Part shown: positions 1,088 to 56,134 of the stretch, piece by piece
Position numbering within the stretch: position 1 is the stretch's first letter
How the letters are laid out: each line of letters begins with the position of its first letter
The notes under the pieces: generated by a model
Seen by the model: the letters and a program-made list of their open reading frames with translations, nothing else
Databases searched by the model: none
Told to the model about the DNA's origin: nothing
Translations under genes and position numbers: made by a program
Source: Candidatus Enterousia sp.
GTDB taxonomy: Bacteria; Pseudomonadota; Alphaproteobacteria; Rs-D84
DNA: 64,000 bases
Assembly: GCA_045648925.1 (NCBI GenBank)
Contig: JAZROY010000004.1
Coordinates: 74,913 to 138,912 of the forward strand
Reading direction: 5' to 3'

Positions 1088-1218
1088 ATTCCCCGCCCGG
1101 GGCGGGGTGGATTGCTGGAACGACAGAGACAGCAAGACGGGGAGGGTTGAAAATTCATGGTTTGTTTTTTCACAACCCTCCCCACCGCAAGCGGTCCCCC
1201 CCGCCCCAGGCGGGGAAT
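1088..1218. repeat. GC-rich composite palindromic element (three nested or adjacent hairpins), REP/RPE-like
   Basis: ccccgcccggggcgggg (1091-1107), ggggagggttg...caaccctcccc (1139-1183), ccccgccccaggcgggg (1199-1215), flanked by aatatt/aattt. Near-identical modules occur at 15511-15531 and 32674-32765. Confidence 0.65.
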
Positions 1219-9211: not shown

Positions 9212-10171
9212 ATGGCTATAAAAGTTCGTGATTTCGAAGTGCGATTAACTCGCAACAAAGAAGAAAGAAAAATGGTGCGCCAGTTGCGTTACGAAGTTTT
9301 CTGTTTGGAAGAAGGTGCATCTGCAACCGAAGAACAAAAAAACCTGGGCGAAGAATATGATGCCTATGATACATATGCCGATTATATGGCGGTTTTCCAC
9401 GATGGTAAAATTGTTGGAACATATCGTATTATTGACAAAGATGCTGCCGACAAAATGGGTGGTTTTTACACAGAAAGCGAATTTAATTTATCCAAAATAA
9501 AAAAGGTAAAGGGCAATATTGCAGAAATGTCACGCGCCTGTGTAAAAAAAGAATATCGCGATGACGGTTTGGTTATTCGTTTGCTTTGGGCGGGATTATG
9601 CGAATATGTCGTAAAGCGCAAAGTTGTTCTTTTATTCGGTGTTCCATCTTTTGTTGGAACAAATCCTGCACAATCGGCCCAGGCATTATCTTATCTTTAT
9701 TACAACTGTTTATCACCTTCGCATTTATTGGCAACTGTGTTAAAAGAAAACCTGGACCCAAGTGTTGATCCGCGTATGACCCAGATGAATATTTTGCCAC
9801 GCGCTTTTGTTAACGAAGACGAAGCAAGAAAACAAATGACACCTTTGATTAAGGGGTATTTGCGCCTGGGGGCGACATTTGGACGCGGGGTGTTTATTGA
9901 TAAACCTTTTGGAACATATGATGTGTTTGTTTTGGTTCAAACGAAAAAAATTGACAAAGTATTCCAAAAACATTTTGCTGGTTCTGAAACTGCTTTTGAT
10001 GAATTCGATATCAAAGAAGGGCCATTACATCTTTTGACCCGCATAATTATGTCACCGTTTACCGGCACCGCTAAGGCAATAAGGGCATTTGGCGAATTGT
10101 TTATGCGTGAAGATGCAGACGATATCGAATACATTGACAAAGAAGAAACCGAAGAAGAGAATAACCAATAA
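9212..10171 (+). CDS. olsB: Ornithine lipid N-acyltransferase OlsB-like (GNAT/hemolysin-like acyltransferase)
   Basis: About 319 aa. N-terminus LRYEVFCLEEGA..YDAYDTYADYMAVFHDGKIVGTYRII resembles the OlsB family. Immediately followed (1-nt overlap) by a PlsC-type acyltransferase, the olsBA arrangement. Confidence 0.65.
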   Translation: MAIKVRDFEVRLTRNKEERKMVRQLRYEVFCLEEGASATEEQKNLGEEYDAYDTYADYMAVFHDGKIVGTYRIIDKDAADKMGGFYTESEFNLSKIKKVKGNIAEMSRACVKKEYRDDGLVIRLLWAGLCEYVVKRKVVLLFGVPSFVGTNPAQSAQALSYLYYNCLSPSHLLATVLKENLDPSVDPRMTQMNILPRAFVNEDEARKQMTPLIKGYLRLGATFGRGVFIDKPFGTYDVFVLVQTKKIDKVFQKHFAGSETAFDEFDIKEGPLHLLTRIIMSPFTGTAKAIRAFGELFMREDADDIEYIDKEETEEENNQ

Positions 10172-10980
10172 TGAAAATTCGCAAACCAAATATTTTTATT
10201 AAAATTGTGAAATTTTTTTGGCTGATGCTGGCGTGCCTTATGGTGCTTGTTAATGCCTTTATACTTTGCTTTATTCCAAAGGGTAAATTGTCTGTTAAAT
10301 ACATGCAATTTTTTATGCGTCAATTTAACTTTATGACTGGTGTGAAGTATAAGGTAAAGGGCAAGTTAACAAACAAACGACCCCTGCTCTGTGTTTGCAA
10401 CCATATTTCGATATTTGAAATTTCTACTATGGCGGTGGCATTTGGCGGTTCTTTCTTTGGTAAGAAAGAAATCGGAGAATGGCCTTTGGTTGGCTGGATT
10501 GCAAAAAAGTTTGGTGTAGTATTTATTGACCGCCGTCCTTCACACGCGATTGAAGCATTGGGGGCGATAAAATCTGAATTGGACACTGTTGATTATCCAA
10601 TGTTTATATTTCCCGAAGGGACATCGACAAACGGCGCATATGTAAAACAATTCAAAAGTTCTATGTTTGATATCGTTGAAAAAACGGGCATTACCGTACA
10701 ACCAATCGTTATTCATTATCGTTTAAAAGACGGCACAAAAATAAGCGATGAAGACATGGCAAATCATTTTGCTTACTTTTCTAATGCGAAAATGGATTGT
10801 GGCCCATATTGTAACAAAGAACGCGATGCTTTTATGCAGGTTTTCCATATAATGTGCTTGGGCGGTTTCTTGGTTGAAATCAAAGTTTTGCCAGTTCCCG
10901 ATTTGTCGGGTATGGATAGAAAACAAATGGCAGAAACCCTGCATGAAACAATTTCAAAAGAATATATGAAAAATAAATAA
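10171..10980 (+). CDS. olsA: Lysophospholipid/lyso-ornithine lipid O-acyltransferase (PlsC family), OlsA-like
   Basis: N-terminal TM. Acyltransferase motifs CNHISIFE (HX4-acidic) and FPEGTSTNG. Confidence 0.7.
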   Translation: MKIRKPNIFIKIVKFFWLMLACLMVLVNAFILCFIPKGKLSVKYMQFFMRQFNFMTGVKYKVKGKLTNKRPLLCVCNHISIFEISTMAVAFGGSFFGKKEIGEWPLVGWIAKKFGVVFIDRRPSHAIEALGAIKSELDTVDYPMFIFPEGTSTNGAYVKQFKSSMFDIVEKTGITVQPIVIHYRLKDGTKISDEDMANHFAYFSNAKMDCGPYCNKERDAFMQVFHIMCLGGFLVEIKVLPVPDLSGMDRKQMAETLHETISKEYMKNK

Positions 10981-14682: not shown

Positions 14683-15018
14683 TTATGCGGCCATGCGATT
14701 TGCAGATTTAGTTTCTGATTTTTCTGCATCCATAATCTTTTTCGCTTCGGCAAATACCATTTCTTTGACACGCAGTGCCAAATCTGGTGTTTCCAAAGTT
14801 TCAGCAGCCACATCAAAATTGTCTGTTCTGATTTGCAACGAAACATATGCGCCAATCAGTGCAGCACGTGACAAATCTTCGATAGACCGTGGCGCATTGT
14901 TTTTCCCAATATGCAATTCGTCACTAAGCGATACTATCTGTCTGTCTGCGTTGACCCATACAGTCGTTGTCAAAACTTTATCCAGAGCAATCATAATCTC
15001 TTTTATGTTTTTTGACAT
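14683..15018 (-). CDS. Conserved hypothetical protein (111 aa from the internal ATG with strong Shine-Dalgarno)
   Basis: ATG at 15018 is preceded by gggagga. The longer 128-aa ORF extension lacks a Shine-Dalgarno. No recognisable motif. Confidence 0.4.
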   Translation of the reverse strand: MSKNIKEIMIALDKVLTTTVWVNADRQIVSLSDELHIGKNNAPRSIEDLSRAALIGAYVSLQIRTDNFDVAAETLETPDLALRVKEMVFAEAKKIMDAEKSETKSANRMAA

Positions 15019-15487
15019 TGGTTCCTCCCTTCCAGTCATTTGTTTTATGAGAAAAAATAAACCTTTCATTGTATTTACTGTTGTATTTACAATTTTTTAC
15101 TTTTATTTTTTCCCAGTTGTTATTTTTTCCCAGATTTCCGGTTTTTACCAGATTTCTGGGGGTTTACAGGTTCCTCCACCTTGTCTATACAAACATCTTA
15201 AAACAAAAACGAATCGCGGGTCAAGTATAAATTTTGATTATTTTTAAAAAAATTAAAAAATGGCTGATTTGTAACGGTTTTATCCTCAAATATGCAGGAA
15301 AAGAATTAAAAGTCCCCATCTTTGCTTTTGTGTCATTCCGAGCGAATCGTGGGAATCCATATATACCAAAGTATCAGCAATGCAAAAATATATGGATGCT
15401 CATGCTCGTTCACACTCGCTCAGCATGACCACCTTTCGCTAAAGCTTCGGGTGGCAGGCACAGACACTTTGGGTTGAAAACTTCAAT

Positions 15488-15531
15488 CCTCCCCATTCGC
15501 TTCGCGTCCACCCCGCCCCAGGAGGGGAATT
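15488..15531. repeat. GC-rich palindromic element, partial copy of the 1088-1218 family
   Basis: cctcccc...ccccgccccaggaggggaatt, nearly identical to ccccgccccaggcggggaattt at 1198-1218. Confidence 0.55.
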
Positions 15532-15680
15532 ATCTATTTCCTGTTACAGTATAAATTTTCCCGCATTATTAATTCCACTTTGATACATAATCAGGAAAAT
15601 TTTTTGTTTAAACTTTATTTTTGTGCTTGCGCGATTTTTGATATTGTGATAAAATGATAGAAAAAGGAAAGGGAAATCTC

Positions 15681-18374
15681 ATGAAAAGATTTATTAGTGT
15701 GTTAAGTGGTTTGCTGGTTTTGCCTGCTTTTGCAGAGGTTGCACCGGTTTATTACGACGAAGTTGTCGAATATTCTGATGATGCAGCAGTGGCAGAAGAT
15801 TCTGCTGAATCTGTTGCACAAAAAAATGGTGGGCAACGAACAAATATAAATCGTTCGACATCTGCCACGCGTGCAATATCATCCGGAACAAATACATCTT
15901 CGCGGACAAATACGGCTTCACGTGCGGTTGCTTCTTCGCCAAGAACGGCGACATCTGGGACAACCCGTGGCACTGTGGCGCGTACTGCGACAAAAACATC
16001 TGGGACTGCAACACGAACCAACCAGACCGCTTCACGTGCAGTTACTTCGCGTAACGCCCAAACTTCTAAACCTGTGACGGCGCGTGTCGGTGTGTATAAC
16101 AGCCAGGTTATGTCTGGCGATCGCACTGGTGGTGGTATAACGGTCATCCCTGCCTCTGGTAACACTGCATTATATAACCCAAGTGCATCGTCCCGTATTG
16201 GTGTTGCAAGTCGTCGTGCATCTTCGCGTATTTCTACTCCGGTTGCACCTGTGACAACAACGACAACTATTACCCAAGAAGATGTCACTTCTACAACCAA
16301 CAATTTAACAAATATTGCCGAATTGACCGATTATTGCAAGGCACAATATGCGGCTTGTATGGATAATTATTGTAATATATTGGATGATAATCAGGGCAGA
16401 TGTTCTTGTTCTAAAAACATCAAAAATTATGAAAAAACAGAACAAACATTGGCCCAGGCAACCGAAGATTTCCAAAATGTCGTTCAACAAATAAGATATA
16501 TCGGTTTAACATCTGACCAGATTGAAGCATTATTCACAGAAACCGAGGCAGAACTTACCATGAAATCCACAACTGATTCTTCGCGTTTGAAAAACAGTTT
16601 GGACAGCATTAAAAAGAAAATTGTTGATGTTTCAACACCATCTGCGGCAAGTAATGTCACAAGTGGTTTGACATTGGACATGAATGGTTTGTTGACGGCT
16701 GACTTTTCTGCTGGGTTTGATTTGAATTCATTCTTGAATATGAATAACAATTCATCAAGTGTTTCCAATCAACGCGGCGAACAATTATATAAAACTGCGG
16801 CAAACAGATGTAAAACAGCGGTGCTGAATTCCTGTACAACCCAGGGTATTGATGCCAATATTATAACAAATGCTTATGATTTGGAAATTGATAAGCAATG
16901 TGTGTTATATGAACGTTCTTTGAATGATGCAAATGCTGAAATGAAACAAAATGTGACAAATGCAACCACAATTTTGCAACAGGCGCGTTTGCTTTTGGCA
17001 CAAAACAAGAATTCATATGATTTACGTGGATGTATCGCGGCAATTGATTCTTGTATGCAGGACGAATATATCTGTGGAACCGATTATGAATTATGTTTGG
17101 ACCCAACTGGTAAATATTTGGCGAACGGCGAAATTGTAAAGGGTGGAACACCTGGTGTTTCTGGTGGTCAACCAAGAACAGACGATATAATGTGTGCAAC
17201 GGCTTGCGGCAACTGGGACGATTTGGGGTATGGCACAAATTATGATGATAATGATTTAGACCAATACTGCCCTGATGGTTGTGTAGATAAGGATAAATGG
17301 GTCAGTGAAGGTATGTATAATTTATATTCCACATGGGATTATAGCAACAAAAACTATAATGCGTGGAGTATGGGTGAAAAAGAAAATCTTGGTGGATATA
17401 TTGATGAAAATTTAACTAAATGGAAATCAAATTACAAAAAATCCAAAGATACTACTTATACAGACAATATGGCAATGTATTTATTGCAAAAAATTGGCTA
17501 TATCGATGATAATGACAAGGTTCACGGGATGTGTGCATCTGTCTTTAAACAATGTCAAGATTACACATATTCATCTTCGTCCAGTCGTAAATCGACCAAA
17601 AAGTATGTTCCAGATAACGAAGTTGTTCGTCAATATCTGAACAATACACTGGCCAAAATAAAGGTACAGCAAGATGCAATCATCGCCGATTATGCAGAGG
17701 GTTGCCGTAACGATGTTACATCATGTTTGTCCACAAATGGATATGATGAAACAGCACCAAATTCAACCGCCACAAAAACAGCGATTAACGCGTGTGCTGC
17801 GGAAATCACAACATGTATGTCTGTGGGCGGATATCAAATTACAGATGGTGTGAAATTGACATTGCGTGCGATGTCCGACTGGGTTGCAAGTATTATGTTA
17901 ACATGTCCAGAAAATCAATATTTGGCTGATGATGGCGCTGGTCACGTATATTGCGCATCATGTCCATCAACTACTGTGATTTTTGATGCAAATGTGGCAT
18001 GGGCTGCAAATAATCCAGATGCCCCATACGAAGCGGCTAACGCAAGTACTAAGTATGTTACAGTGTTTGGCGGGAGTTCTACTGTCCAATTAGTTTCCGC
18101 TGGTGGACGTATAACGAGTTGTTCCTGCCCAGAGGGATATGTAGATTATAGTTCTAAAGGCGATTGTCTTATAGGTTCAAATGGTGAAGTAAGAACAACA
18201 TGTACTACTGATCCTGGGACAGCCTTGGTTTCTAATGTTCATAAGGGAGACACGTTGTGTTTAGATGCCAGTGTAAGATGTATATATACCATTGGTAATC
18301 AAAATGGATACTGTGGCACCAGTCAGGCAGATGCGGAACGTATTTATAACTTATATAATAGTTCTGGAAATTAA
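15681..18374 (+). CDS. Large secreted protein: signal peptide, S/T/R-rich low-complexity region, Cys-rich C-terminal domains (unknown family)
   Basis: ATG at 15681 with aaaggaaagggaaatctcATG. Signal peptide MKRFISVLSGLLVLPAFA. Residues about 60-200 are S/T/R/A-rich (TSATRAISSGTNTSSRTNTASRAV...). More than 40 Cys in the remainder. Terminator at 18400-18430. Confidence 0.6.
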   Translation: MKRFISVLSGLLVLPAFAEVAPVYYDEVVEYSDDAAVAEDSAESVAQKNGGQRTNINRSTSATRAISSGTNTSSRTNTASRAVASSPRTATSGTTRGTVARTATKTSGTATRTNQTASRAVTSRNAQTSKPVTARVGVYNSQVMSGDRTGGGITVIPASGNTALYNPSASSRIGVASRRASSRISTPVAPVTTTTTITQEDVTSTTNNLTNIAELTDYCKAQYAACMDNYCNILDDNQGRCSCSKNIKNYEKTEQTLAQATEDFQNVVQQIRYIGLTSDQIEALFTETEAELTMKSTTDSSRLKNSLDSIKKKIVDVSTPSAASNVTSGLTLDMNGLLTADFSAGFDLNSFLNMNNNSSSVSNQRGEQLYKTAANRCKTAVLNSCTTQGIDANIITNAYDLEIDKQCVLYERSLNDANAEMKQNVTNATTILQQARLLLAQNKNSYDLRGCIAAIDSCMQDEYICGTDYELCLDPTGKYLANGEIVKGGTPGVSGGQPRTDDIMCATACGNWDDLGYGTNYDDNDLDQYCPDGCVDKDKWVSEGMYNLYSTWDYSNKNYNAWSMGEKENLGGYIDENLTKWKSNYKKSKDTTYTDNMAMYLLQKIGYIDDNDKVHGMCASVFKQCQDYTYSSSSSRKSTKKYVPDNEVVRQYLNNTLAKIKVQQDAIIADYAEGCRNDVTSCLSTNGYDETAPNSTATKTAINACAAEITTCMSVGGYQITDGVKLTLRAMSDWVASIMLTCPENQYLADDGAGHVYCASCPSTTVIFDANVAWAANNPDAPYEAANASTKYVTVFGGSSTVQLVSAGGRITSCSCPEGYVDYSSKGDCLIGSNGEVRTTCTTDPGTALVSNVHKGDTLCLDASVRCIYTIGNQNGYCGTSQADAERIYNLYNSSGN

Positions 18375-18502
18375 TTTCGGTTATGTTTGGAATTACATAA
18401 AAAAAGCGTTGGAAACAACGCTTTTTTATTTTATTTATTCTATAAATTGTGGGCAATAATAACTGGGTGATTATCAATAAAAAAAATGCCATTGGCATTT
18501 TT

Positions 18503-31703: not shown

Positions 31704-32570
31704 TTATTGCACACTGAAAAATGGTGCACGAAAACCATCAGAATAAGAATGAAGATAACTAGAACAAGACGCAGCGCAATTGGCTAGGCACTCCTGTGTA
31801 TCATTATCATACCCTGTTGGATGTAACACCCACACAGAACCAGATAATACGCACGATGGACCACCATTTGACGTATAATTGGTTGCCTTGCACCAACAAT
31901 ATTCTCCATCTTGCGTCGAAGTTATTTCACTGTCTGTCGCTGTCCAATTTGAACTGTTATTATCGTATGCACCATCATTAGTATTCCCCGCTTTGGTACT
32001 GCATTTTGAAATACCTTTTATCGTACCATAATTAAATCCTATTGCCCATTCACCGGCACTAAAGCCATCAAAATAACTATCGCTACAATCATTACTGCCT
32101 ACCTCTGTATCATTGTTCCAATAGCTACACAGGTATTGCCAATTCCATTGGACAGAGTAGTTCATACCAAGTTCCCATATTCCTTCTATTGTTGCATCCA
32201 AACTTGATAAACTGCATTGTTGTACCTGTTGACCAGCACCAGCTTGTCTTACCCGCCAGCCCTTAAATGTATATCCTGTTTTTGTCGGTATTGTTGATGG
32301 TGGGGTTAATGTTCCGTCATATACGCAACTTTGTGATACACTTGGCACATTTTGTATTTCCGTGTCACCATTATACCAATGAAGTTGTATTGTGTTTGCC
32401 TGCCAATTTGCTTGCAGGTTTGATGTGCCAGAATATGTTTGTAATGGATTATTTCTACAATTCGCTGTGGATGCACTTGATGGGATATCTGGGTCGGCAA
32501 AACTTGGGGCGGAAAAAATAAAAGAAATTGCAAAACAAATCGTTCCGATTTGTTTTATGCTTAGCAACAA
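31704..32570 (-). CDS. Cys-rich secreted protein with a (CA)16 tract in its 5' region. Probable phase-variable surface or secreted protein. Contains a GYTFKGW motif reminiscent of Listeria-Bacteroides (Flg_new) repeats
   Basis: The ORF track starts at TTG 32570 with no Shine-Dalgarno. The hydrophobic signal-peptide core is SLLLSIKQIGTICFAISFIFSAPSFA. The only Shine-Dalgarno plus ATG (aaaggagaaataaaATG, ATG 32641-32639) is upstream of the repeat and currently out of frame. Confidence 0.6.
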   Translation of the reverse strand: MLLSIKQIGTICFAISFIFSAPSFADPDIPSSASTANCRNNPLQTYSGTSNLQANWQANTIQLHWYNGDTEIQNVPSVSQSCVYDGTLTPPSTIPTKTGYTFKGWRVRQAGAGQQVQQCSLSSLDATIEGIWELGMNYSVQWNWQYLCSYWNNDTEVGSNDCSDSYFDGFSAGEWAIGFNYGTIKGISKCSTKAGNTNDGAYDNNSSNWTATDSEITSTQDGEYCWCKATNYTSNGGPSCVLSGSVWVLHPTGYDNDTQECLANCAASCSSYLHSYSDGFRAPFFSVQ

Positions 32571-32572
32571 AC

Positions 32573-32611
<39 letters not shown>

Positions 32612-32673: not shown

Positions 32674-32765
32674 TTCCCCGCCCGGGGCGGGGGGGACCAC
32701 GAAGTGGTGGGGAGGGTTCACCCCCCTCCCCGACTTCGTCGGTACTCCCCCACTGGGGGGAGAAT
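32674..32765. repeat. GC-rich composite palindromic element (same family as 1088-1218)
   Basis: ttccccgcccggggcggggg, then nested gaccacgaagt...acttcgtcggtac and ggggaggg...ccctcccc, then ctcccccactggggggag. Confidence 0.65.
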
Positions 32766-33037: not shown

Positions 33038-33778
33038 TTGTCTAGAATCAAATTGAATAATGTGGGAGATAATGTGGCAAAAGTAATACAACCGCCGGTT
33101 TTGTTGTCACGCGTGTTGACGTTCGTGTTCGCAACGTCTGTTGTTGTTTTGGCAACTTTGATTATTACATTGGTAAAAATTATGCCACTGGAACGACCAG
33201 AAGTTTTCTTTTTATCAACGCACACACTGTCTGTAAATGCCACAATTGAACCATTGGTTCCAAATTCGGCAAATCAACAGGCACTGGAACAATATGAAAA
33301 GGGCTTTGTTCGTGAATATATAATCGCACGAAATACTTTGATGCCAAATTCTGGATTGACATTGAAAAATTGGGCAAATGTGGTAAAACCTTGGTCAAAT
33401 AATCGTGTATATTCCGCATTTACACGCACCACATTATACAAAGAATATAGTGATAGTGGTGTTTCATCGGCAATTTCTTGTTCTGTCAATTTTTCTGACA
33501 AAAACAAAGAGCAGCCCGTCGTAAAAACCGGACACAATTCTCAATACGATGAATATACTGTCACTTTTGCGTGGGTTTGTAAAAATAGTGGTGGACAAGC
33601 CACACAAAAAAATTATAAGATACGATTAAGAATACAATCTGTTTTGGATGACAAAGTGTCGGACACATTGGAAAACCTGAACAAATTGCGTGACAATCCT
33701 TTGGGAATACGGGTTGTAGAATACACAATTTTGGATGGCGATGGCGACCCTTTGAATTCTGACAAATACTCTTTGTAA
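33038..33778 (+). CDS. virB8: Type IV secretion system protein VirB8 homolog
   Basis: Short N-terminus, one TM (VLTFVFATSVVVLATLIITLV), periplasmic domain with the conserved NPLG(I/F)xV motif (LRDNPLGIRVVEY). The probable true start is GTG 33077, preceded by gggaga. Confidence 0.75.
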   Translation: MSRIKLNNVGDNVAKVIQPPVLLSRVLTFVFATSVVVLATLIITLVKIMPLERPEVFFLSTHTLSVNATIEPLVPNSANQQALEQYEKGFVREYIIARNTLMPNSGLTLKNWANVVKPWSNNRVYSAFTRTTLYKEYSDSGVSSAISCSVNFSDKNKEQPVVKTGHNSQYDEYTVTFAWVCKNSGGQATQKNYKIRLRIQSVLDDKVSDTLENLNKLRDNPLGIRVVEYTILDGDGDPLNSDKYSL

Positions 33779-33815
33779 AAGGGTTGGGTAATTCATAAGG
33801 AAAGGATTATAAAAG

Positions 33816-35306
33816 ATGACTTTTATAAATTTTTGCAAAATAAATGTTTCATTACTGGCAATTTTGTGCTGTGTGTCCCCTGCGGCGGCTGTTTATCAGA
33901 TGGCATGGGACAACCCAAACATGAATATGGCAAGCGGTTCTTTGAAGCCAGGATATGCGAATTTAACTTGGTCTACGGGAACAGTATTACCGATAAAAAC
34001 CCGCGCTGGGATGGCAACTTTGGTGACTTTACCAAACGGTGAAAAGATTGCGGACATTGTTGCTGGAAACGAAGCATTGTTCCATATTGATGCGAATCCT
34101 GGCGATTCGTATATGTATATAACCCCAACCGATGAAAACAATGGTAATGATACCAATATGATTGTGACCGGTGAATCTGGGAACAAATATATTTTCTATT
34201 TGCGCGCTTATCCTATTAATTCCAGCGATATCACATATTCCCAGGTTGATGTTTCCGCGGGCTCTGGGGCAAATGTTGTTATTTCAAACAGTGTACCCGC
34301 GCCATCTGGATCTATGGGGTCTATATTCAAAAAGTCTACATCAAAAACATCAACTATTGGTGTTGATGGTGAAGATTATGGTTGGATAAAAACAATGAAA
34401 ATCGACCCTTCGGAATTCCGTTTTGATTTGGATATATTTGTTCCAAACCCAGACGATTATGTAATTGCACCAGAACGCGTATGGCGCGACAGAATCTTTA
34501 CATACATTGATTTCGGGGACAAGGTTATATCTATGACACAAAGACCGGTTGTATCATTATTGGTCGAAGGTGGCGAAAGCCCTGTTGGTTTCCGCACAGA
34601 CGGTGAAGACGGTCGTTTATTGATTGTCGAAGCGGTCGGCGATTTGGTTTTGCGTAGTGGTCAAAGAATTGTTTGTATCAAAAAACGTGCTAAACCTTTC
34701 TTGATTGCCGATACCGCATCTGTTATGGCACTGGCTGAGGCAAATGTTGCACAATCATTGGCGGCGAATCAATCTTTGAATACGATTGCGTATAATGATG
34801 AAATGTATGCGATAAACGCAAATGTCAATGATTATTACAGCACTACACCAACATATGTTTATAATCAACCAACTGATTTGATGTATGCAACTGGTGGGAT
34901 GCAATCTGTTTCTGTATCTGGTGGTCCAAATATGATTCCATCAGAACGCGCAACCGCTGGTTCTTATTTACCGCAATCAAATATACCACTGATTACCAGC
35001 AATCAAACCGGGGTTGCGGTCGAATTGAAATCAGATACTTCGGTAAAGGCATTAAATGATTACTGGACAGAATTGCTGGCTAAATTCAGCGGCGAAGATG
35101 GTGATGGTATACTGACACCTTATAAGAACAGTGTATTTTTTGCGGTTGATGAACAAGGTGTTGGTGATTTGGGTTCAGAATCTGCAACAGCGCGTCTGTA
35201 TCGCTTGCGTATTGGACCTTTGTCTGATATAGATGCCGCACAAAAATTGTGCGACCAGTTGTTAAAGTTCAGTGGTGCCAGTTGCTATGTAGTCAGGATA
35301 CAATAA
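33816..35306 (+). CDS. virB9: VirB9/TrbG/CagX-family T4SS outer-membrane core protein with extra C-terminal SPOR (peptidoglycan-binding) domain
   Basis: Signal peptide. N-terminal domain GMATLVTLPNGEKIADIVAGNEALFHIDANPGDSYMYITPTDENNGNDTNMIVTGESGNKYIFYLRA (TrbG/VirB9 pattern). C-terminal beta-domain DRIFTYIDFGDKV...LRSGQRIVCI. Then about 200 extra aa ending in a SPOR-like YRLRIGPLSDIDAAQKLCDQLLKFSGASCYVVRI. Confidence 0.75.
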   Translation: MTFINFCKINVSLLAILCCVSPAAAVYQMAWDNPNMNMASGSLKPGYANLTWSTGTVLPIKTRAGMATLVTLPNGEKIADIVAGNEALFHIDANPGDSYMYITPTDENNGNDTNMIVTGESGNKYIFYLRAYPINSSDITYSQVDVSAGSGANVVISNSVPAPSGSMGSIFKKSTSKTSTIGVDGEDYGWIKTMKIDPSEFRFDLDIFVPNPDDYVIAPERVWRDRIFTYIDFGDKVISMTQRPVVSLLVEGGESPVGFRTDGEDGRLLIVEAVGDLVLRSGQRIVCIKKRAKPFLIADTASVMALAEANVAQSLAANQSLNTIAYNDEMYAINANVNDYYSTTPTYVYNQPTDLMYATGGMQSVSVSGGPNMIPSERATAGSYLPQSNIPLITSNQTGVAVELKSDTSVKALNDYWTELLAKFSGEDGDGILTPYKNSVFFAVDEQGVGDLGSESATARLYRLRIGPLSDIDAAQKLCDQLLKFSGASCYVVRIQ

Positions 35307-35309
35307 AAA

Positions 35310-37721
35310 ATGAAATATATCAAAGAACAATATGATGATTTTAGAAATAACACGCCGACATATGTCCAATGGCTGTTGTTGGCTGTGGCTTTCTTGATTG
35401 TGATTATATTGTTGACTTTGCTGTTGTCGCACAAAAAAGAAGACAATACACCAGAGGTGGAAAATCAACATATTGAATTTAATGTCACACCACAAAATAT
35501 AAAATTTGATAATGTCAAAGTTGGCGAATCAGAACATGCAAAAGTTAATATTTCTGTGAATGTGCCTGTTATCATAGAAAGTGTGAAAATATATAATAAC
35601 GATTTCACAACACCTAATAATTGTGTGTATGACGAAGTAGATTCATGTAATATAAATATAATTTATACACCAACTGCGCCACAAAAATTATCAAATACAA
35701 CTTTGGTAATCACATGGTATGATGTAGATTCAGAAGATACCGTAAACACCGAAGAAATCCCTGTGGTGTTCAGTTCTTATAAAGAACCAGCAAAAGTGGT
35801 TGAACCAGAAGTAATACCAGAACCAGAACCACCTTTTGTTGATGAACCAGAACCGGAACCTGTGACACCTGTGGAAGAAATAAAAACTATCGCAATACCA
35901 AACCCAATAAGACAGCCAGAGCCAGAACCAGAACCAATTGTTCGTGCGAATCCTTGTTCTGAATTTGCTATACCAGGGTATGATGCATCTGGTCATCAGA
36001 TTGGTTGGATAAAACCAGAACGCGGAACAAATTATTTCTATCCTTTTTCGGATAAAACTTGTTCAAATCCGACTGGCAAATACGATATGGCAACCGGGGT
36101 TATTTTATCTTTGAAAGATGGTTCCAGAATCGGAACAGATTCAGACCATATCGGATACAGAAATGTTCGTGACAGAAATCTTAGTATGCCAAAATTATCA
36201 ATGCCTGGCTCGTCTTCTGTTTCTGCAAGAAATGGCGAATTCGATAGTTCCGCAAAATGGGTCGCAACAGGCAGTAATGGTCGCACAATCGCAACAAAAC
36301 ATGATGATAGTAGAAAATTCGACAGAAATCGTAAAAATACAGCAAACGAGGCTTTACTGGTTGGCTCTGGATTTGGTGCTGGGGAATCTGTAACTTCTTC
36401 TTTACCGTATGACAGAACATTTATCCTTCGGCAATTTAAACCTATTCCAGCAACCATTGTTTCAGAAGTGCGCGCAGACCCAAGTGTATACGGATGCACA
36501 AAGGCGGGCGATAAATGTGACCCAAAGAAAAATTACAGCATCCCTGTGCGTGCAACAGTTGACAGAAATGTTTATTCTGATGATGGGCGCACAATAATAT
36601 TACCAACAGGGACATTGTTAATGGGATATTTGGATGGTGATTTGCCCGGTCCGTACCAAGCATTTGGTCGTATGAGTATAAAGTGGTATCAATTCATCCG
36701 CCCAGATGGTGTTGAATTTAATTTCGCCGATGGTCAAGATCCGTATTCTGCTGATGCCCAGGGGCGTATGGGGGTCCCAGGTCACGGCAGCACTGATTAT
36801 ATCGAACAGATGGTTATGCCGTTGTTAACATCATTGGTCCCCGCGGCTGTAAATATGATTGCACCTATTGCTGATACAGTCATAAATCAAATAGATTTGG
36901 ATAATAACACTATCGTTCAATCTGGAACGATTCGTTCATCGGAAATGGCAAAACAAGATGTTATCAATACATGGAATAAAATCACACAAAAATTGTTGGT
37001 TGATGCGATTGATAATACTGTGCCACCGTTTTCTATTGCTGCTGGAACGCGTATAAATGTGTTTTCACCGGTCGATTTGATTGTGTCTTGCCAAGACAAA
37101 GGTATAAATGGAAAATGTTCTGTTATAACACCTGGCTCTGATAAACGTCGTAAATGGTCTGATTTAAAGGGCAAAGCAAGTTTTGATCCAAATGATGGTT
37201 CATGGGTTGGTCAGGTGCGTTCGTTTGATTTGATGCAATATTGCGACCAAGACAGCAAAGACAAATGGACAATCAAAAACGATGGATCTTGGACAGAATC
37301 TGGATACGAATACAGAACAGTCCTGTTATATTGCGAATCCTTGAATTACGCAGCTGTAAACAACGCGAAACAATCTGTGTATAACCAAAATGTTCAACAG
37401 CAAGCGACCAAGAAATATGGCACAGCAGAATATGATCAAAAAACAAACACTTTGAAACAATACGGGACAGAAGAACAGACCAAGGCATATAATACCGAAG
37501 TACTTGGGTTGGAATACGATGATGAAGGCAATATAAAGAATCCATTTGCAAAACCAGACGCTACTGTTGACACCCAAGATATTTTGACCTGTGATGACGG
37601 GTTGGCACCTGATACCAATGGTTGTTGCCCCGGCGAAACATTTACTGATATGGGTGAAGATGGATGGAATTGTTGCCCGGATACTGGTGGTGATTGTTTC
37701 CCACCAATAACAGTTGAATAA
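35310..37721 (+). CDS. virB10: VirB10/TrbI-family T4SS core protein, unusually long (803 aa) with an inserted region and a Cys-rich C-terminal extension
   Basis: N-terminal TM (WLLLAVAFLIVIILLTLLL). Pro-rich linker (PEVIPEPEPPFVDEPEPEPVTP...QPEPEPEP). TrbI barrel domain (ILPTGTLLMGYLDGDLPGPYQAFGRMSIKWYQFIRPDGVEFNFADGQDPYSADAQGRMGVPGHGSTDYIEQ...). About 230 extra C-terminal aa with a CC..CC..C cluster. Confidence 0.75.
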   Translation: MKYIKEQYDDFRNNTPTYVQWLLLAVAFLIVIILLTLLLSHKKEDNTPEVENQHIEFNVTPQNIKFDNVKVGESEHAKVNISVNVPVIIESVKIYNNDFTTPNNCVYDEVDSCNINIIYTPTAPQKLSNTTLVITWYDVDSEDTVNTEEIPVVFSSYKEPAKVVEPEVIPEPEPPFVDEPEPEPVTPVEEIKTIAIPNPIRQPEPEPEPIVRANPCSEFAIPGYDASGHQIGWIKPERGTNYFYPFSDKTCSNPTGKYDMATGVILSLKDGSRIGTDSDHIGYRNVRDRNLSMPKLSMPGSSSVSARNGEFDSSAKWVATGSNGRTIATKHDDSRKFDRNRKNTANEALLVGSGFGAGESVTSSLPYDRTFILRQFKPIPATIVSEVRADPSVYGCTKAGDKCDPKKNYSIPVRATVDRNVYSDDGRTIILPTGTLLMGYLDGDLPGPYQAFGRMSIKWYQFIRPDGVEFNFADGQDPYSADAQGRMGVPGHGSTDYIEQMVMPLLTSLVPAAVNMIAPIADTVINQIDLDNNTIVQSGTIRSSEMAKQDVINTWNKITQKLLVDAIDNTVPPFSIAAGTRINVFSPVDLIVSCQDKGINGKCSVITPGSDKRRKWSDLKGKASFDPNDGSWVGQVRSFDLMQYCDQDSKDKWTIKNDGSWTESGYEYRTVLLYCESLNYAAVNNAKQSVYNQNVQQQATKKYGTAEYDQKTNTLKQYGTEEQTKAYNTEVLGLEYDDEGNIKNPFAKPDATVDTQDILTCDDGLAPDTNGCCPGETFTDMGEDGWNCCPDTGGDCFPPITVE

Positions 37722-54191: not shown

Positions 54192-55040
54192 ATGAAATCA
54201 AAAGTATCATTTTGCATCTTTGCCATGGTTGCATGTTTTAGTGCAAATGCCCAAGATATTGAATTGGACAATGCCTTGCGTGAAACTTATGTAAACTGTG
54301 TTGGTATCGATGATGCACTGCACGATATGAAAGTCAAAGCAGGCATTAATACCGCCGTAACTGGTGTTGGGACTGTCGCTGGGGGCGCTGCTTTGGTTGT
54401 TGGAATTAAAAAAGCACACTTGATGGATAAATTACCCAGTATTGAAGATAAATATCTTGATCAATATCCGCAACAAACTTCTGATGATTTGAACATAACA
54501 AGAAATCCAAATTTTAAACCAGATTTGAAATCAAAAAGAAAAAAATTGGGTAATTGGCGCACAGGTTTGTTGGCTGTTAATACTGCGACCAATGTAGCTG
54601 GCGCGACAATTGCTGGGACAAACAAAGTAAAAAAGCCATTAGAAGAACAAATAGATAATTGTAAAACATCTGTGAAAAATTTAAAAAATGAAATAACCCG
54701 TGCAAAATTTAATGGCGAAGATGTAAGTGAGGCCCAAAATATAGCATCTGCTTGTGGCGAATTTGAATACACAGACCTTAGCAAGATAAACAATCGTGCC
54801 AAAGGTGCAGAAATTTCATCTATTGTTGGTGCCGGAACTGGTTTTGTTGGAACAATAACAAGTGCGGTTGCAAATAAATCTTCGGGTGAAAAAGAAAGAA
54901 AATTGGATACAGCATCTAATGTCTTGGCTGGTGGCGCAACAGTAGCCACAGGAACCGCGACAGTATTTAATGCAACGCAAATTGCCGCTATAAAAAAAGT
55001 TGTCGATGTAGCACAAAAATGTGAGAGTTTATTAAAATGA
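54192..55040 (+). CDS. Secreted protein with three Gly/Ala/Thr-rich hydrophobic segments (unknown family)
   Basis: Signal peptide MKSKVSFCIFAMVACFSANA. Segments TAVTGVGTVAGGAALVVGI, VNTATNVAGATIAGT, SIVGAGTGFVGTITSAVA and LAGGATVATGTATVF. Stop overlaps the start of the next gene (ATGA). Confidence 0.5.
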   Translation: MKSKVSFCIFAMVACFSANAQDIELDNALRETYVNCVGIDDALHDMKVKAGINTAVTGVGTVAGGAALVVGIKKAHLMDKLPSIEDKYLDQYPQQTSDDLNITRNPNFKPDLKSKRKKLGNWRTGLLAVNTATNVAGATIAGTNKVKKPLEEQIDNCKTSVKNLKNEITRAKFNGEDVSEAQNIASACGEFEYTDLSKINNRAKGAEISSIVGAGTGFVGTITSAVANKSSGEKERKLDTASNVLAGGATVATGTATVFNATQIAAIKKVVDVAQKCESLLK

Positions 55041-56134
55041 AAAAAACATTGTTGATTTTTTGCTTGGTATCACTTGCGAATTTGAATTCTGCATCTGGCG
55101 CGTATTTTTATGCTGATGTTGTTGAACAAGCAATACAAACATCTTTCCCATCAGAAGTCCAAGCAGATGTTGCCGCTGAATACGAAGCGCAAATGAATCC
55201 AGATACAGGTGAAATTGATACAAACGGAATCATGAATGTTTGTTATGCTGGCGGTTTTGATGTGACCACAGAAGATGGCGCAGCCGAATGTGCTAATTTT
55301 GTTCAAACAATGGCTGGAACATGTCCTTATACAATATCTGGGGCTGTATATGACGATAATGGCGACAAAATTTTAAAAGATACAGACCCCAGAAGTTTCA
55401 TTGATTATTATAACAATCCGCAAACGAATGAAGAAAAATTAAGAAAATGCGTTTTGGATAAAACTATTGATTGGGCGATAAAATCTGCCGCAGAAGGTGG
55501 CGGTAACGAAGGCGGTTTTCAACAAACGCGTTCTGACAAAGGCAATCGTATTTGTGATAAAAACGGAAATCCGTTAAAAGATGCCAAAGGAAATTATCTT
55601 TTGGGCGCGACTAATTTTGGTATTACAACTTGTGCATCAGGACTGTCTGTTGCATGCATAAAAAATATGACAAAAGCAGATGCGAAAAAATATTACTGGA
55701 CGCGTCATTTTATGAAGATGAGATATTATCGTTTACCCATAGAAATTCAAGCATTGGTAATGGAAATGTCTATTTCTGGGATCGGGAATGCTGGAAAAGC
55801 ATTCAGATGCACCCTTGATGGAAAACCTGCTTCGTGGGGCAATTATCCGGTCGTTACAAATGACCCGGTAAATGCACTTAGAGAATGGGAAACTTCGCAT
55901 TCAAATGGTGAAAGAGATGCGTTTAAACGCCGTTATACTGGCATGGATTTGGTCAACGGCAAAAATTGCGTTCCTGTTCATCAAGAAAGAAGAAAACGCG
56001 CATATGAACATTTGAAAGAAATATATAAAACATGTGCAAACGAGTTGGGCATCAGTTGGGTTAAACCTATCACTAAATATCCGTTTATGAAAGACCCATC
56101 AACACTAAAAATGACACCTTCTAAAGCAGGTTAA
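55037..56134 (+). CDS. Secreted GH108-family lysozyme-like peptidoglycan hydrolase with PG-binding-3-like C-terminus
   Basis: Signal peptide. EGGGNEGGFQQTRSDKGN...NFGITT...MTKADAKKYYWTRHF...LPIEIQALVMEMSISGIGNAGKAF matches the GH108 consensus (EGG..D.GG.T.yGI...lt..qA..iY...YW...lp...a...fD.avN.G...A). Confidence 0.6.
   Translation: MKKTLLIFCLVSLANLNSASGAYFYADVVEQAIQTSFPSEVQADVAAEYEAQMNPDTGEIDTNGIMNVCYAGGFDVTTEDGAAECANFVQTMAGTCPYTISGAVYDDNGDKILKDTDPRSFIDYYNNPQTNEEKLRKCVLDKTIDWAIKSAAEGGGNEGGFQQTRSDKGNRICDKNGNPLKDAKGNYLLGATNFGITTCASGLSVACIKNMTKADAKKYYWTRHFMKMRYYRLPIEIQALVMEMSISGIGNAGKAFRCTLDGKPASWGNYPVVTNDPVNALREWETSHSNGERDAFKRRYTGMDLVNGKNCVPVHQERRKRAYEHLKEIYKTCANELGISWVKPITKYPFMKDPSTLKMTPSKAG

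What the first reader, a model, noticed from the sequence alone, without database searches (positions are those of the whole stretch)
15070..18374. Orphan 897-aa secreted protein with S/T/R-rich low-complexity region and Cys-rich domains behind a 600-bp repeat-laden control region
The protein has a signal peptide. An about 140-aa serine/threonine/arginine-rich segment follows (potential O-glycosylation or mucin-like stalk), then about 650 aa with more than 40 cysteines and no recognisable catalytic motif. That suggests a disulfide-rich extracellular adhesin or effector.

The upstream region holds these tandem direct repeats:
- ttattttttcccag x2 (15103-15133)
- ccagatttc x2
- gtatttac x2

It also holds a partial GC-palindrome, and is shared divergently with a small conserved hypothetical gene.

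The antisense high-GC ORF (15752-16303) is an artefact of the S/T/R-rich codons.
Basis: seen in the sequence. Interest (0 to 1): 0.55.

Follow-up and report, generated by a model that had tools for sequence, protein, structure and literature searches.

The report
Hypervariable disulfide-rich secreted protein family
This gene is not an orphan: it belongs to a large, uncharacterised family of exported, disulfide-rich proteins found across a group of tiny-genome gut bacteria (Candidatus Enterousia / order Rs-D84). Its core is strongly conserved, and two segments are swapped wholesale between otherwise near-identical strains, as in variable surface proteins that contact other cells.

Summary
The ORF is real: 897 aa from ATG 15681, with a Sec-type signal peptide and a 160-aa S/T/R-rich basic segment. 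It has 32 cysteines, not more than 40. It is not an orphan. It has over 1,300 homologs, relatives in 276 species genomes and 601 clusters at 50% identity, all in uncultured gut or rumen Alphaproteobacteria (Ca. Enterousia / Rs-D84 and allies). There is no Pfam, NCBIfam, PDB-sequence or Foldseek match.

Cysteine counts are even in 339 of 353 members (range 18-120), so the cysteines are almost certainly all disulfide-paired and the protein is extracytoplasmic. The core is under strong purifying selection (dN/dS 0.03). Two segments (about 17172-17400 and 17916-18371) fall to 30-50% DNA identity between strains that are otherwise 97-100% identical. They change independently of each other, which points to recombinational cassette exchange.

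Most likely it is a cell-envelope or surface contact protein with a conserved helical stalk and variable tips. That function is inferred, not shown.

The "600-bp control region" is composite. All three tandem repeats lie in the leader of the divergent 111-aa gene; two are conserved order-wide (one forms a covarying hairpin). The middle is non-conserved spacer with REP-like GC hairpins. The gene's own conserved extended -10 promoter lies within 55 bp of its start codon.

The parts
15681..18374 (+). Coding sequence of the Cys-rich secreted protein (897 aa plus stop). The true start is ATG 15681 (MKRF...).
   Evidence: ORF list. The start is conserved as ATG or GTG with the SD AAGGAAGG in all 27 loci inspected. 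The upstream ATG 15654 lies inside the -10 region and is not conserved. 72 of 80 orthologous loci hold an intact ORF of at least 600 aa; 7 run off a contig end and one (L035) reads through only 503 aa.
15627..15655 (+). Own sigma-70-type promoter: -35 TTGCGC (15627-15632), 17-nt spacer, extended -10 TGaTAAAAT (15647-15655).
   Evidence: The motif CTTGTA/TTGCGC-N17-TGATAAAAT is conserved at the same distance from the start codon in window plus 26 loci. Function is inferred; the transcription start was not mapped.
15664..15673 (+). Shine-Dalgarno AAGGAAAGGG
   Evidence: Conserved AAGGAAGG 7-10 nt before the start codon in all loci.
15681..15734 (+). Signal peptide, residues 1-18 (MKRFISVLSGLLVLPAFA | EVAP), SPase I type.
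   Evidence: Only hydrophobic window in the protein, AXA site, no lipobox. Nearly invariant in close relatives and of the same type in distant ones. No predictor was available.
15735..15845 (+). Conserved acidic segment, residues 19-55 (EVAPVYYDExVEYxD..., net charge -7).
15846..16325 (+). S/T/R-rich basic low-complexity segment, residues 56-215 (net charge +14, no Cys, repeated S/T-R dipeptides). Predicted disordered.
   Evidence: Composition. Arg positions are conserved. pLDDT is below 35 with no secondary structure. dN/dS is 0.21-0.31.
16326..17171 (+). Conserved core 1, residues 216-497: long helices with 12 invariant or near-invariant Cys (CKAQYAACMDNYCNxLDDNQGRCSCS ... Cx6C motifs).
   Evidence: Alignments A1 and A4. 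dN/dS is 0.03 against L001 and L002. Helical in the AF2 model.
17172..17400 (+). Hypervariable segment 1 (residues about 498-573; 4 Cys in the window allele).
   Evidence: dN 0.50 against L001 while the neighbouring core has dN 0.004. DNA identity drops to 36-51% in L086, L087 and L001 between flanks of 88-100%. Protein identity is 27-53% in strains whose core 1 is 100% identical (core 2: 78-99%).
17401..17915 (+). Conserved core 2, residues about 574-745: helices with three Cx6C pairs (618/625, 675/682, 705/712).
   Evidence: dN/dS is 0.11-0.16.
17916..18371 (+). Hypervariable C-terminal segment 2, residues 746-897 (9 Cys, beta-rich). Contains CSCPEGYVDYSSKGDC at residues 814-829, which matches the EGF_2-type pattern.
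   Evidence: dN 0.62 and dS 1.9 against L001. DNA identity is 8-68% in L085, L087 and L001, returning to 89-97% right after the stop codon. Pairs exist with core below 85% but C-terminus 95-98% identical. Pattern match.
18400..18427 (+). Terminator-like hairpin followed by a T-rich tail, 26 nt after the stop codon.
   Evidence: Consensus scan only.
15752..16303 (-). Antisense ORF of 183 aa: not a gene.
   Evidence: It overlies the GC-richer S/T/R codons. The longest antisense open stretch varies from 74 to 194 aa among orthologs.
14683..15018 (-). Divergent neighbour: a highly conserved 111-aa protein of unknown function (MSKNIKEIMIAL...). The true start is 15018, not 15069.
   Evidence: Start codon with SD AGGGAGGA/AAGGGGGG conserved in 48 loci. 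dN is 0 against L001. No Pfam, NCBIfam or PDB hit. Called as 111 aa in public records.
15019..15194 (-). Conserved leader of the small gene (inferred 5' UTR).
   Evidence: 70-85% DNA identity in more than 50 genomes. It travels with the small gene even where that gene is not next to the Cys-rich gene.
15069..15092 (-).
   Evidence: Nearly invariant in 49 of 49 leaders. Not enriched elsewhere in the window. Role unknown.
15129..15160 (-). Conserved stem-loop CCCAGA-AA-UCUGGU-AAAA-ACCGGA-AA-UCUGGG.
   Evidence: The same hairpin is predicted in 49 of 49 leaders. 6 of 12 pairs show compensatory changes, 0 of 500 shuffles reach the covariation score, and slid controls are far lower.
15103..15133 (.). 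TTATTTTTTCCCAG x2: a local duplication of the hairpin's 3' arm plus A-tract.
   Evidence: Exact 14-mers. The second copy is present only in the window, L001 and L002.
15195..15224 (-). Promoter of the small gene: -35 TTGACC (15224-15219), 18-nt spacer, -10 TAAGAT (15200-15195). An AT-rich tract lies upstream (about 15225-15265).
   Evidence: Consensus scan. Nearly invariant across 49 leaders.
15270..15600 (.). Non-conserved spacer. It holds a stable hairpin (about 15340-15410) and a REP-like GC-rich element (15476-15531, including the "partial GC palindrome" 15508-15531).
   Evidence: Replaced by unrelated sequence in L002 and L085. Folding z-score is -2.9. Related GC hairpins occur at 1091-1111, 1196-1219 and 32675-32698.

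Best explanation
The gene encodes a member of a large, lineage-specific and so far undescribed family of Sec-exported, fully disulfide-bonded envelope or surface proteins. The family occurs in reduced-genome gut Alphaproteobacteria (Ca. Enterousia / order Rs-D84 and allied 'Rickettsiales' MAGs).

Proposed working, step by step:
1. Transcription starts from the gene's own compact extended -10 promoter. The sequence conservation is shown; promoter function is inferred.
2. The protein is exported by Sec and cleaved after AFA18. This is inferred from sequence rules and conservation.
3. The 32 cysteines fold oxidatively into 16 disulfides. This is inferred from cysteine-count parity across the family. 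Many of them probably link helices that carry Cx6C pairs.
4. The strongly conserved helical core and the basic S/T/R-rich disordered segment form the invariant stalk or anchor. This is inferred.
5. Two Cys-containing segments, HVR1 and the C-terminal HVR2, form the exposed variable part. They are replaced as cassettes by homologous recombination between strains. The mosaic is shown; the recombination mechanism is inferred.

The variable part most likely determines, or escapes, recognition at the cell surface. That could be attachment to a partner or host cell in this partner-dependent lineage, or evasion of phage or antibody.
For: Real and constrained:
- 72 of 80 orthologous loci hold an intact ORF of at least 600 aa; 7 run off a contig end and one (L035) reads through only 503 aa.
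- Core dN/dS is 0.03, comparable with the neighbouring PlsX and MDH.

Family size:
- 1,354+ hits.
- Relatives in 276 GTDB species genomes.
- 601 clusters at 50% identity, 680-2,338 aa long.
- The architecture of signal peptide, SR-rich region, Cys core and variable C-terminus is kept down to 25-30% identity.

Export and disulfides:
- The signal peptide is conserved.
- The Cys count is even in 339 of 353 members, and in 99 of 110 diverse representatives, over a range of 18-120 Cys.

Variable modules:
- Against L001, dN is 0.50 in HVR1 and 0.62 in HVR2, while the core has dN 0.004.
- Strains with 97-100% DNA identity across the gene and its flanks fall to 30-50% in one or both segments, independently.
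- 51 of 110 pairs with more than 93% core identity have less than 50% C-terminal identity. Some pairs show the reverse discordance.

Surface hints:
- A long homolog carries Listeria-Bacteroides surface repeats.
- An EGF_2-type Cys pattern recurs in C-termini far above shuffle expectation.

Lifestyle context:
- Rs-D84 genomes are under 1 Mb and lack standard transporters. The authors suggest a partner-dependent lifestyle (PMC12306168).
Against: - No direct evidence of localisation exists. How a Sec-exported protein would cross the outer membrane is unknown. The organism appears diderm, with a Pom-like porin and TolC in the window.
- There is no autotransporter barrel, lipobox or known sorting signal.
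- The lineage is reported to lack respiratory chains, which raises the question of how periplasmic disulfides are formed. No Dsb gene is present in the window.
- An Arg-rich disordered segment would be protease-sensitive if exposed in the gut.
- No ligand, partner or conserved gene neighbourhood is known.
- The structure model is only moderate (pLDDT 68) and its coordinates could not be inspected.
Confidence: 0.5

Rival explanations
1. Envelope structural protein. On this view it is a periplasmic or outer-membrane-associated, disulfide-cross-linked scaffold, functionally like the chlamydial cysteine-rich envelope proteins. The basic S/T/R segment would bind peptidoglycan or anionic lipids. The hypervariability would reflect phage or predator pressure on an exposed loop rather than ligand specificity.
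For: - It is a core gene of a reduced genome with a very conserved helical core.
- All cysteines appear to be paired.
- The conserved basic segment has fixed Arg positions.
- It has its own conserved promoter and strong SD.
- Peptidoglycan-related genes are present in the window (SLT, PBP5, SPOR domains).
Against: - Two long segments are replaced as cassettes, and C-terminal extensions reach 2,338 aa with surface-type repeats. Neither is typical of an internal scaffold.
- There is no similarity to OmcB/DUF11 or any peptidoglycan-binding domain.
Confidence: 0.17
2. Polymorphic toxin or bacteriocin-like effector. A conserved N-terminal delivery part would carry a variable C-terminal toxic domain exchanged between strains.
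For: - It has a conserved N-terminal two thirds with an abruptly divergent C-terminal region of about 150 aa that is exchanged between lineages.
- In one distant member the gene follows a TolC-MFP-MacB-type exporter operon.
Against: - There is no downstream immunity gene. The stop codon is followed by a terminator-like hairpin and then the convergent plsX.
- No toxin domain was found in Pfam.
- The variable parts are Cys-rich and disulfide-paired, as in extracellular binding modules.
- A second, internal hypervariable segment exists.
- It is one copy per genome in 75 of 80 loci.
Confidence: 0.08
3. Contact or stabilisation factor of the type IV secretion system. It would be a functional analogue of F-plasmid TraN, a Cys-rich, Sec-exported outer-membrane protein whose variable part selects the partner cell's surface protein.
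For: - virB8, virB9 and virB10 homologs lie 15 kb away in the window.
- The overall logic is shared: signal peptide, many disulfides, conserved base and variable specificity region. What is said here about TraN is from my own knowledge, not a tool result.
Against: - Pfam TraN does not hit.
- Profile comparison with F TraN aligns only the signal peptides (probability 0.7%).
- The gene is never seen next to T4SS genes in the loci examined.
Confidence: 0.07
4. One reading: an orphan secreted protein governed by a 600-bp repeat-laden regulatory region shared with the neighbour.
For: The repeats and the long intergenic region exist.
Against: - The gene is not an orphan.
- The repeats lie in the neighbour's conserved leader and stay with that gene when the two genes are apart.
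- The central 330 bp is not conserved.
- The gene's own promoter is conserved within 55 bp of the ATG even where the intergenic region is only 300 bp.
Confidence: 0.02

Closest known systems
Recombining variable surface proteins with a conserved anchor (e.g. Campylobacter fetus SapA S-layer proteins, Neisseria pilin and Opa) - from my own knowledge
   Same: An invariant part sits next to sharply bounded hypervariable segments that are exchanged by homologous recombination. Near-identical strains therefore differ only in those segments.
   Different: - There is no sequence or fold similarity.
- No silent cassettes were found in the 64-kb window, so exchange appears to be between strains rather than from an internal archive.
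- This protein is Cys-rich, unlike S-layer proteins and pilins.
F-type TraN mating-pair stabilisation protein (Pfam PF06986)
   Same: It is Sec-exported, has many conserved disulfide-forming cysteines, and combines a conserved framework with a variable region that sets partner specificity. A T4SS is present in the genome.
   Different: - There is no homology: Pfam is negative and hhalign probability is 0.7%.
- It is predicted to be mainly long helices.
- It is not encoded with T4SS genes.
Chlamydial cysteine-rich envelope protein OmcB - from my own knowledge
   Same: It is a Cys-rich, signal-peptide-bearing envelope protein of a reduced-genome, host-dependent bacterium, with a basic N-terminal segment ahead of the Cys-rich body.
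   Different: - OmcB is beta-rich (DUF11 repeats), whereas this core is helical.
- There is no Pfam hit.
- OmcB is not known for cassette-type hypervariability.
Helicobacter cysteine-rich proteins / Sel1-like repeat proteins - from my own knowledge
   Same: They are secreted helical proteins in which regularly spaced cysteine pairs staple helices. Here seven Cx6C pairs lie in predicted helices.
   Different: - There is no Sel1 profile match.
- There is no 36-residue repeat periodicity.
- This protein is far larger and carries hypervariable inserts.
EGF-like / furin-like Cys-rich modules of eukaryotic surface proteins (PROSITE EGF_2 pattern)
   Same: C-x-C-x2-G-Y-x8-C occurs at residues 814-829. 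The pattern recurs in the C-termini of 25 of 125 representatives, against about 0.01 per sequence expected.
   Different: It is a pattern-level match only. No Pfam EGF, hEGF or Ephrin_rec_like hit appears even at E<=1.

Membership tests
Sec (SPase I) secreted proteins | N-terminal positive n-region, hydrophobic h-region of 10-15 residues, small residues at -3 and -1 of the cleavage site, and no lipobox cysteine. | tested here: met
   MKR / FISVLSGLLVLP / AFA|E. It is the only hydrophobic window in the protein and there is no lipobox. It is conserved family-wide. No dedicated predictor was available.
Disulfide-bonded extracytoplasmic proteins | Cysteines occur in pairs, giving even counts across homologs with different totals. 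| tested here: met
   339 of 353 members and 99 of 110 diverse representatives have even counts, over a range of 18-120 Cys. The bonds themselves were not observed.
EGF-like domain | Match to the EGF profile (Pfam EGF/hEGF), beyond the short PROSITE pattern. | tested here: not met
   The pattern is met at residues 814-829, but there is no Pfam hit at E<=1.
TraN (PF06986) | Sequence or profile similarity to TraN. | tested here: not met
   No Pfam hit. hhalign of the family profile against F TraN gives probability 0.7%, with only the signal peptides aligned.
TraN (PF06986) | Encoded within a conjugative or type IV secretion gene cluster. | tested here: not met
   The neighbours are housekeeping genes in all loci examined. 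The virB8-10 genes are 15 kb away.
Polymorphic toxin systems | A recognisable C-terminal toxin domain and an adjacent immunity gene that co-varies with it. | tested here: not met
   No toxin domain was found. A terminator-like hairpin and the convergent plsX follow the stop codon.
Autotransporter adhesins | A C-terminal beta-barrel translocator domain. | tested here: not met
   No Pfam autotransporter hit. The C-terminus is the least conserved part.
Diversity-generating retroelement targets | A template repeat near-identical to the variable region, a nearby reverse transcriptase, and adenine-specific substitutions without indels. | tested here: not met
   There is no second copy of the variable segments in the window. 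Variants differ by indels and have 30-50% identity. No reverse transcriptase was found among the annotated window ORFs.
Sel1-like / Helicobacter Cys-rich proteins | Sel1 repeat profile matches. | tested here: not met
   No Pfam hit at E<=1, and none in distant members.
Known protein folds (PDB, viral BFVD) | A significant structural match to the AF2 model of the core. | tested here: inconclusive

The most novel reading that the evidence does not exclude
This would be the founding member of a new class of bacterial cell-contact proteins. It would consist of a disulfide-stapled helical stalk with a basic disordered tether, topped by recombining, Cys-knotted specificity modules. Obligately partner-dependent gut Alphaproteobacteria (Rs-D84) would use it to attach to their host or partner cells, making it the key host-range determinant of an as yet uncultured episymbiotic lineage.
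Probability: 0.3. Interest if true: 0.7.

Novelty: new variant of a known kind. Interest (0 to 1): 0.5.

Why it matters
Ca. Enterousia / Rs-D84 are widespread, uncultured gut and rumen bacteria with genomes under 1 Mb. How they obtain nutrients is unknown, and dependence on a partner has been suggested (PMC12306168).

In such a small genome this gene stands out. It encodes about 900 aa, is kept in relatives from 276 species genomes, matches no known domain, and has all its cysteines paired. It also has two segments that strains swap as cassettes. That makes it a prime candidate for the molecule facing the outside world: the partner cell, phage or host immunity.

It gives a concrete handle for several things:
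- strain typing;
- finding the partner, using the variable domains as bait;
- testing how a lineage without respiratory chains oxidises 16 or more disulfides.

The family also deserves a domain definition, because none exists in Pfam or NCBIfam.

Tried and rejected
- Pfam, NCBIfam and PDB sequence searches with the single protein, with the family profile and with distant members found nothing.
- An AF2 model of the full-length protein from 23 close sequences was unusable (pLDDT 42). A second model of residues 196-897 from 44 more diverse sequences reached pLDDT 68. It had no Foldseek match in PDB or BFVD.
- A profile search with distant members was largely wasted: only 7 hits, probably because low-complexity words dominated the candidates.
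- The TraN homology idea was rejected by hhalign.
- The DGR and silent-cassette idea was rejected, because there are no extra copies in the window.
- Conserved gene neighbourhood was rejected. Synteny holds only among close relatives, and distant members sit in unrelated contexts.
- Rfam found nothing in the intergenic region, at gathering or permissive thresholds.
- RNAalifold on the whole leader found only an invariant weak stem. The hairpin emerged only from per-sequence folding and a local alignment.
- The central spacer was searched against phage genomes and JGI metagenome contigs, with no match.
- The twin-box motif is not enriched elsewhere in the window.
- No Dsb-type gene was found in the window.


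Full report
**What is at the coordinates**

An uninterrupted ORF runs from 15654 to 18374 on the + strand. It has 32 cysteines, not more than 40, and all lie between residues 219 and 878.

The N-terminus (MKR / FISVLSGLLVLP / AFA|EVAP) is the only hydrophobic segment. It has an AXA cleavage site and no lipobox. Three regions follow:
- Residues 19-55 are acidic.
- Residues 56-215 are T/S/A/R-rich (T 22%, S 16%, R 10%), with net charge +14 and no cysteine.
- The remaining 680 residues carry the cysteines, seven times as Cx6C.

The antisense ORF 15752-16303 overlies the GC-richer S/T/R codons (GC 0.50 against 0.38). Its length is not conserved in orthologs (74-194 aa), so it is an artefact.

**Not an orphan**

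A search with residues 200-897 returned 1,354 proteins at E<=1e-3. The best 120 are 59-95% identical. None has a Pfam domain, and the few that are named are "hypothetical protein [Alphaproteobacteria bacterium]".

A scan of one genome per GTDB species found relatives in 276 stretches. Nearly all are MAGs labelled Candidatus Enterousia, Alphaproteobacteria or "uncultured proteobacterium", from rumen, horse, pig, chicken and human gut.

An exhaustive profile search of 1.84 billion cluster representatives gave 601 clusters at E<=1e-3 and 201 at E<=1e-30. Their lengths are 680-2,338 aa. Distant members (25-30% identity) come from termite-gut "Rickettsiales bacterium" MAGs.

The same architecture is kept throughout: signal peptide, SR-rich basic region, the motif C-x2-QY-x2-CMD-x-FC-x-V-x-D-x-NQ-x-RCSCS, further invariant cysteines, then a variable Cys-rich C-terminus.

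Ca. Enterousia belongs to the order Rs-D84. Its genomes are under 1 Mb and lack the TCA cycle, respiratory chains and standard transporters. The authors suggest dependence on a partner organism (PMC12306168). The window agrees with this picture: GC is 0.38 and housekeeping genes are densely packed. It also carries a Pom-like porin, an SLT transglycosylase, PBP5, TolC, ComEC and virB8, virB9 and virB10 homologs.

**The gene is functional and the core is strongly constrained**

Of 80 orthologous loci, 72 hold an intact ORF of at least 600 aa. Seven run off a contig end. One (L035), whose match begins 14 bases from its contig edge, reads through only 503 aa from the assumed start.

Against the closest genome (L001), core residues 216-497 have dN 0.004 and dN/dS 0.03. 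That is as low as the neighbouring plsX (0.04) and mdh (0.07). Against L002 the core is again at 0.03.

**All cysteines are probably disulfide-bonded**

The number of cysteines in the mature part ranges from 18 to 120 across the family. It is even in 339 of 353 full-length members, and in 99 of 110 representatives of 50% clusters. About half would be even if there were no pairing constraint. The minimum of 18 equals the set of conserved core cysteines seen in the alignments. This is indirect but strong evidence for an oxidising, extracytoplasmic location.

**Two hypervariable cassettes**

Against L001, residues 498-540 have dN 0.50. Residues 746-897 have dN 0.62 and dS 1.9, whereas dS elsewhere in the gene and in its neighbours is 0.07-0.47.

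Protein comparisons show strains whose signal peptide and core 1 are at least 96% identical to the window (core 2: 78-99%). Those strains still differ sharply in the two variable segments:
- P0004 is only 33% identical in the C-terminal segment.
- P0001 is only 53% identical in HVR1.
- P0015 and P0011 are about 30% identical in both segments.

At the DNA level, contigs L085, L086 and L087 and locus L001 are 92-100% identical to the window along almost all of the gene (more than 97% in most 100-nt windows). They are 89-100% identical just past the stop codon. Identity drops abruptly to 30-50% at about 17200-17400, at about 17900-18390, or at both. The two segments change independently: L086 differs only in HVR1 and L085 only in HVR2.

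Among 110 sequence pairs with more than 93% core identity, 51 have less than 50% C-terminal identity. Conversely, pairs exist with 83-85% core identity but 95-98% C-terminal identity. This is the signature of cassette exchange by homologous recombination, not of point-mutation drift.

No silent copies of either segment exist in the window. Exchange between strains is therefore the simplest source. A ComEC homolog is present, but that is only a hint.

**Structure and similarity**

With 44 sequences spanning 24-91% identity, AF2 gave pLDDT 68 and pTM 0.48 for residues 196-897. The model has long helices (up to 50 residues) through both core parts and short strands in the C-terminal region. HVR1 and the loop at residues 310-363 have low confidence.

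Other similarity tests gave the following:
- A profile search of PDB sequences was negative.
- One 1,845-aa homolog carries Listeria-Bacteroides surface repeats.
- The C-terminus contains an EGF_2-type pattern (residues 814-829). The pattern recurs in 25 of 125 representatives, far above shuffle expectation, but no EGF profile matches.
- F-plasmid TraN seemed a good functional analogue, but it is not homologous.

**Genomic context**

The gene stands alone. It has its own promoter and a terminator-like hairpin at 18400-18427. Its neighbours are housekeeping genes: PTA, MDH, GNAT and the 111-aa gene on one side, and PlsX, RpoC and RpoB on the other. This synteny holds only among closer relatives. 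Distant members sit in unrelated contexts, one of them downstream of a TolC-MFP-MacB operon. Five of 80 loci carry tandem duplicates.

**The upstream region is composite**

(a) The small divergent gene starts at 15018 (M-x-KNIKEIMIAL, with SD AGGGAGGA), not at 15069. It encodes 111 aa.

(b) Positions 15019 to about 15265 are conserved at 70-85% DNA identity in more than 50 genomes. This block stays with the small gene even where that gene is not next to the Cys-rich gene. It contains:
- a near-consensus promoter, TTGACC-18-TAAGAT at 15224-15195 on the minus strand, behind an AT-rich tract;
- a leader of about 170 nt.

- "ccagatttc x2" are the two half-arms of a stem-loop at 15129-15160. The stem-loop is predicted in all 49 leaders examined. 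It shows compensatory changes in 6 of 12 pairs; 0 of 500 shuffles reach the covariation score, and slid controls are far lower.
- "gtatttac x2" is a nearly invariant twin box, TTGTAAATACA-N3-GTAAATACAA, at 15069-15092.
- "ttattttttcccag x2" is a clade-specific duplication of the hairpin's 3' arm.

(c) Positions 15270-15600 are not conserved. L002 and L085 have unrelated sequence there. This stretch holds a stable hairpin and a GC-rich palindromic element. Related copies of that element lie in other intergenic regions of the window, at 1091-1111, 1196-1219 and 32675-32698.

(d) The Cys-rich gene's own promoter is CTTGTA/TTGCGC-17-TGaTAAAAT, at 15627-15655. Together with the SD it is conserved in all 27 loci inspected.

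**Interpretation**

Shown:
- The gene is real and strongly constrained.
- It belongs to a large family specific to this lineage.
- It carries a conserved Sec-type signal.
- Cysteine-count parity implies complete disulfide pairing.
- It has two independently exchanged hypervariable segments.

Inferred:
- The conserved helical core and basic tether form an invariant stalk or anchor.
- The variable segments form the exposed part that meets a partner cell, phage or antibody.

I put 0.5 on this envelope/surface contact-protein reading. The rivals are an internal disulfide-cross-linked scaffold (0.17), a polymorphic toxin (0.08) and a T4SS-linked TraN-like factor (0.07).

**Open problems**

- The route across the outer membrane is unknown.
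- The source of oxidising power in a lineage without respiratory chains is unknown.
- The role of the Arg-rich segment is unknown.
- The ligand is unknown.

Noticed in passing
window 14683-15265 (minus strand): A 111-aa protein with no known domain is extremely conserved (dN = 0 against L001; 75-100% identity across the order). It is preceded by a near-consensus promoter and an order-wide conserved leader of about 170 nt. The leader holds a covarying stem-loop (15129-15160) and an invariant twin box (15069-15092). Neither the protein's function nor the leader's role is known. No Rfam family matches.
   Followed up: partly
window 32578-32610: A (GT)16 microsatellite lies immediately upstream of ORF 31704-32570 (minus strand). 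That ORF encodes another signal-peptide-bearing, Cys-rich protein (288 aa, 13 Cys) with a weak Listeria-Bacteroides repeat hit. It is divergent from the virB8-like gene. This could be a slipped-strand phase-variation switch.
   Followed up: no
window 33038-37721: VirB8, VirB9 (CagX, with a C-terminal SPOR domain) and VirB10 (TrbI) homologs are present. This reduced genome therefore keeps part of a type IV secretion system, as Rickettsiales do.
   Followed up: no
window 1091-1111, 1196-1219, 15476-15531, 32675-32760: A dispersed family of GC-rich palindromic intergenic elements occurs in an otherwise AT-rich genome. The core is CCCCGCCC-nGG-GGCGGGG, often paired with GGGAGGGTT...CCCTCCCC. It looks REP-like, and a similar element sits upstream of the orthologous gene in L002.
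   Followed up: partly
L048, L051, L054, L065, L079: These loci carry tandem duplicates of the Cys-rich gene, each copy 43-46% identical to the window protein.
   Followed up: partly
P0162, P0159, P0132 (representative-search hits): Giant family members of 2,094-2,338 aa, two of them (P0159, P0162) with 115-121 cysteines. The conserved N-terminal module is followed by long Cys-rich extensions, and the Cys counts in the mature part are still even.
   Followed up: partly
L081 5109-12391: In a termite-gut "Rickettsiales" MAG the family member lies directly downstream of a TolC / membrane-fusion / ABC / MacB-FtsX operon, on the same strand. This may be a hint about export, or it may be coincidence.
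   Followed up: no
window 55037-56134: A third signal-peptide ORF with 11 Cys carries a glycosyl hydrolase 108 (lysozyme-like) domain.
   Followed up: no
L014 (JAFZOY010000098.1): A 3.7-kb contig carrying the MDH-GNAT-111aa-Cys-rich gene block is binned in a "Bacteroidales" MAG. This is probably a binning error.
   Followed up: no
window 9212-10980: Adjacent N-acyltransferase (Acetyltransf_5) and acyltransferase genes resemble the OlsB/OlsA pair for ornithine-lipid synthesis. This may bear on the envelope chemistry that the basic S/T/R segment would face.
   Followed up: no
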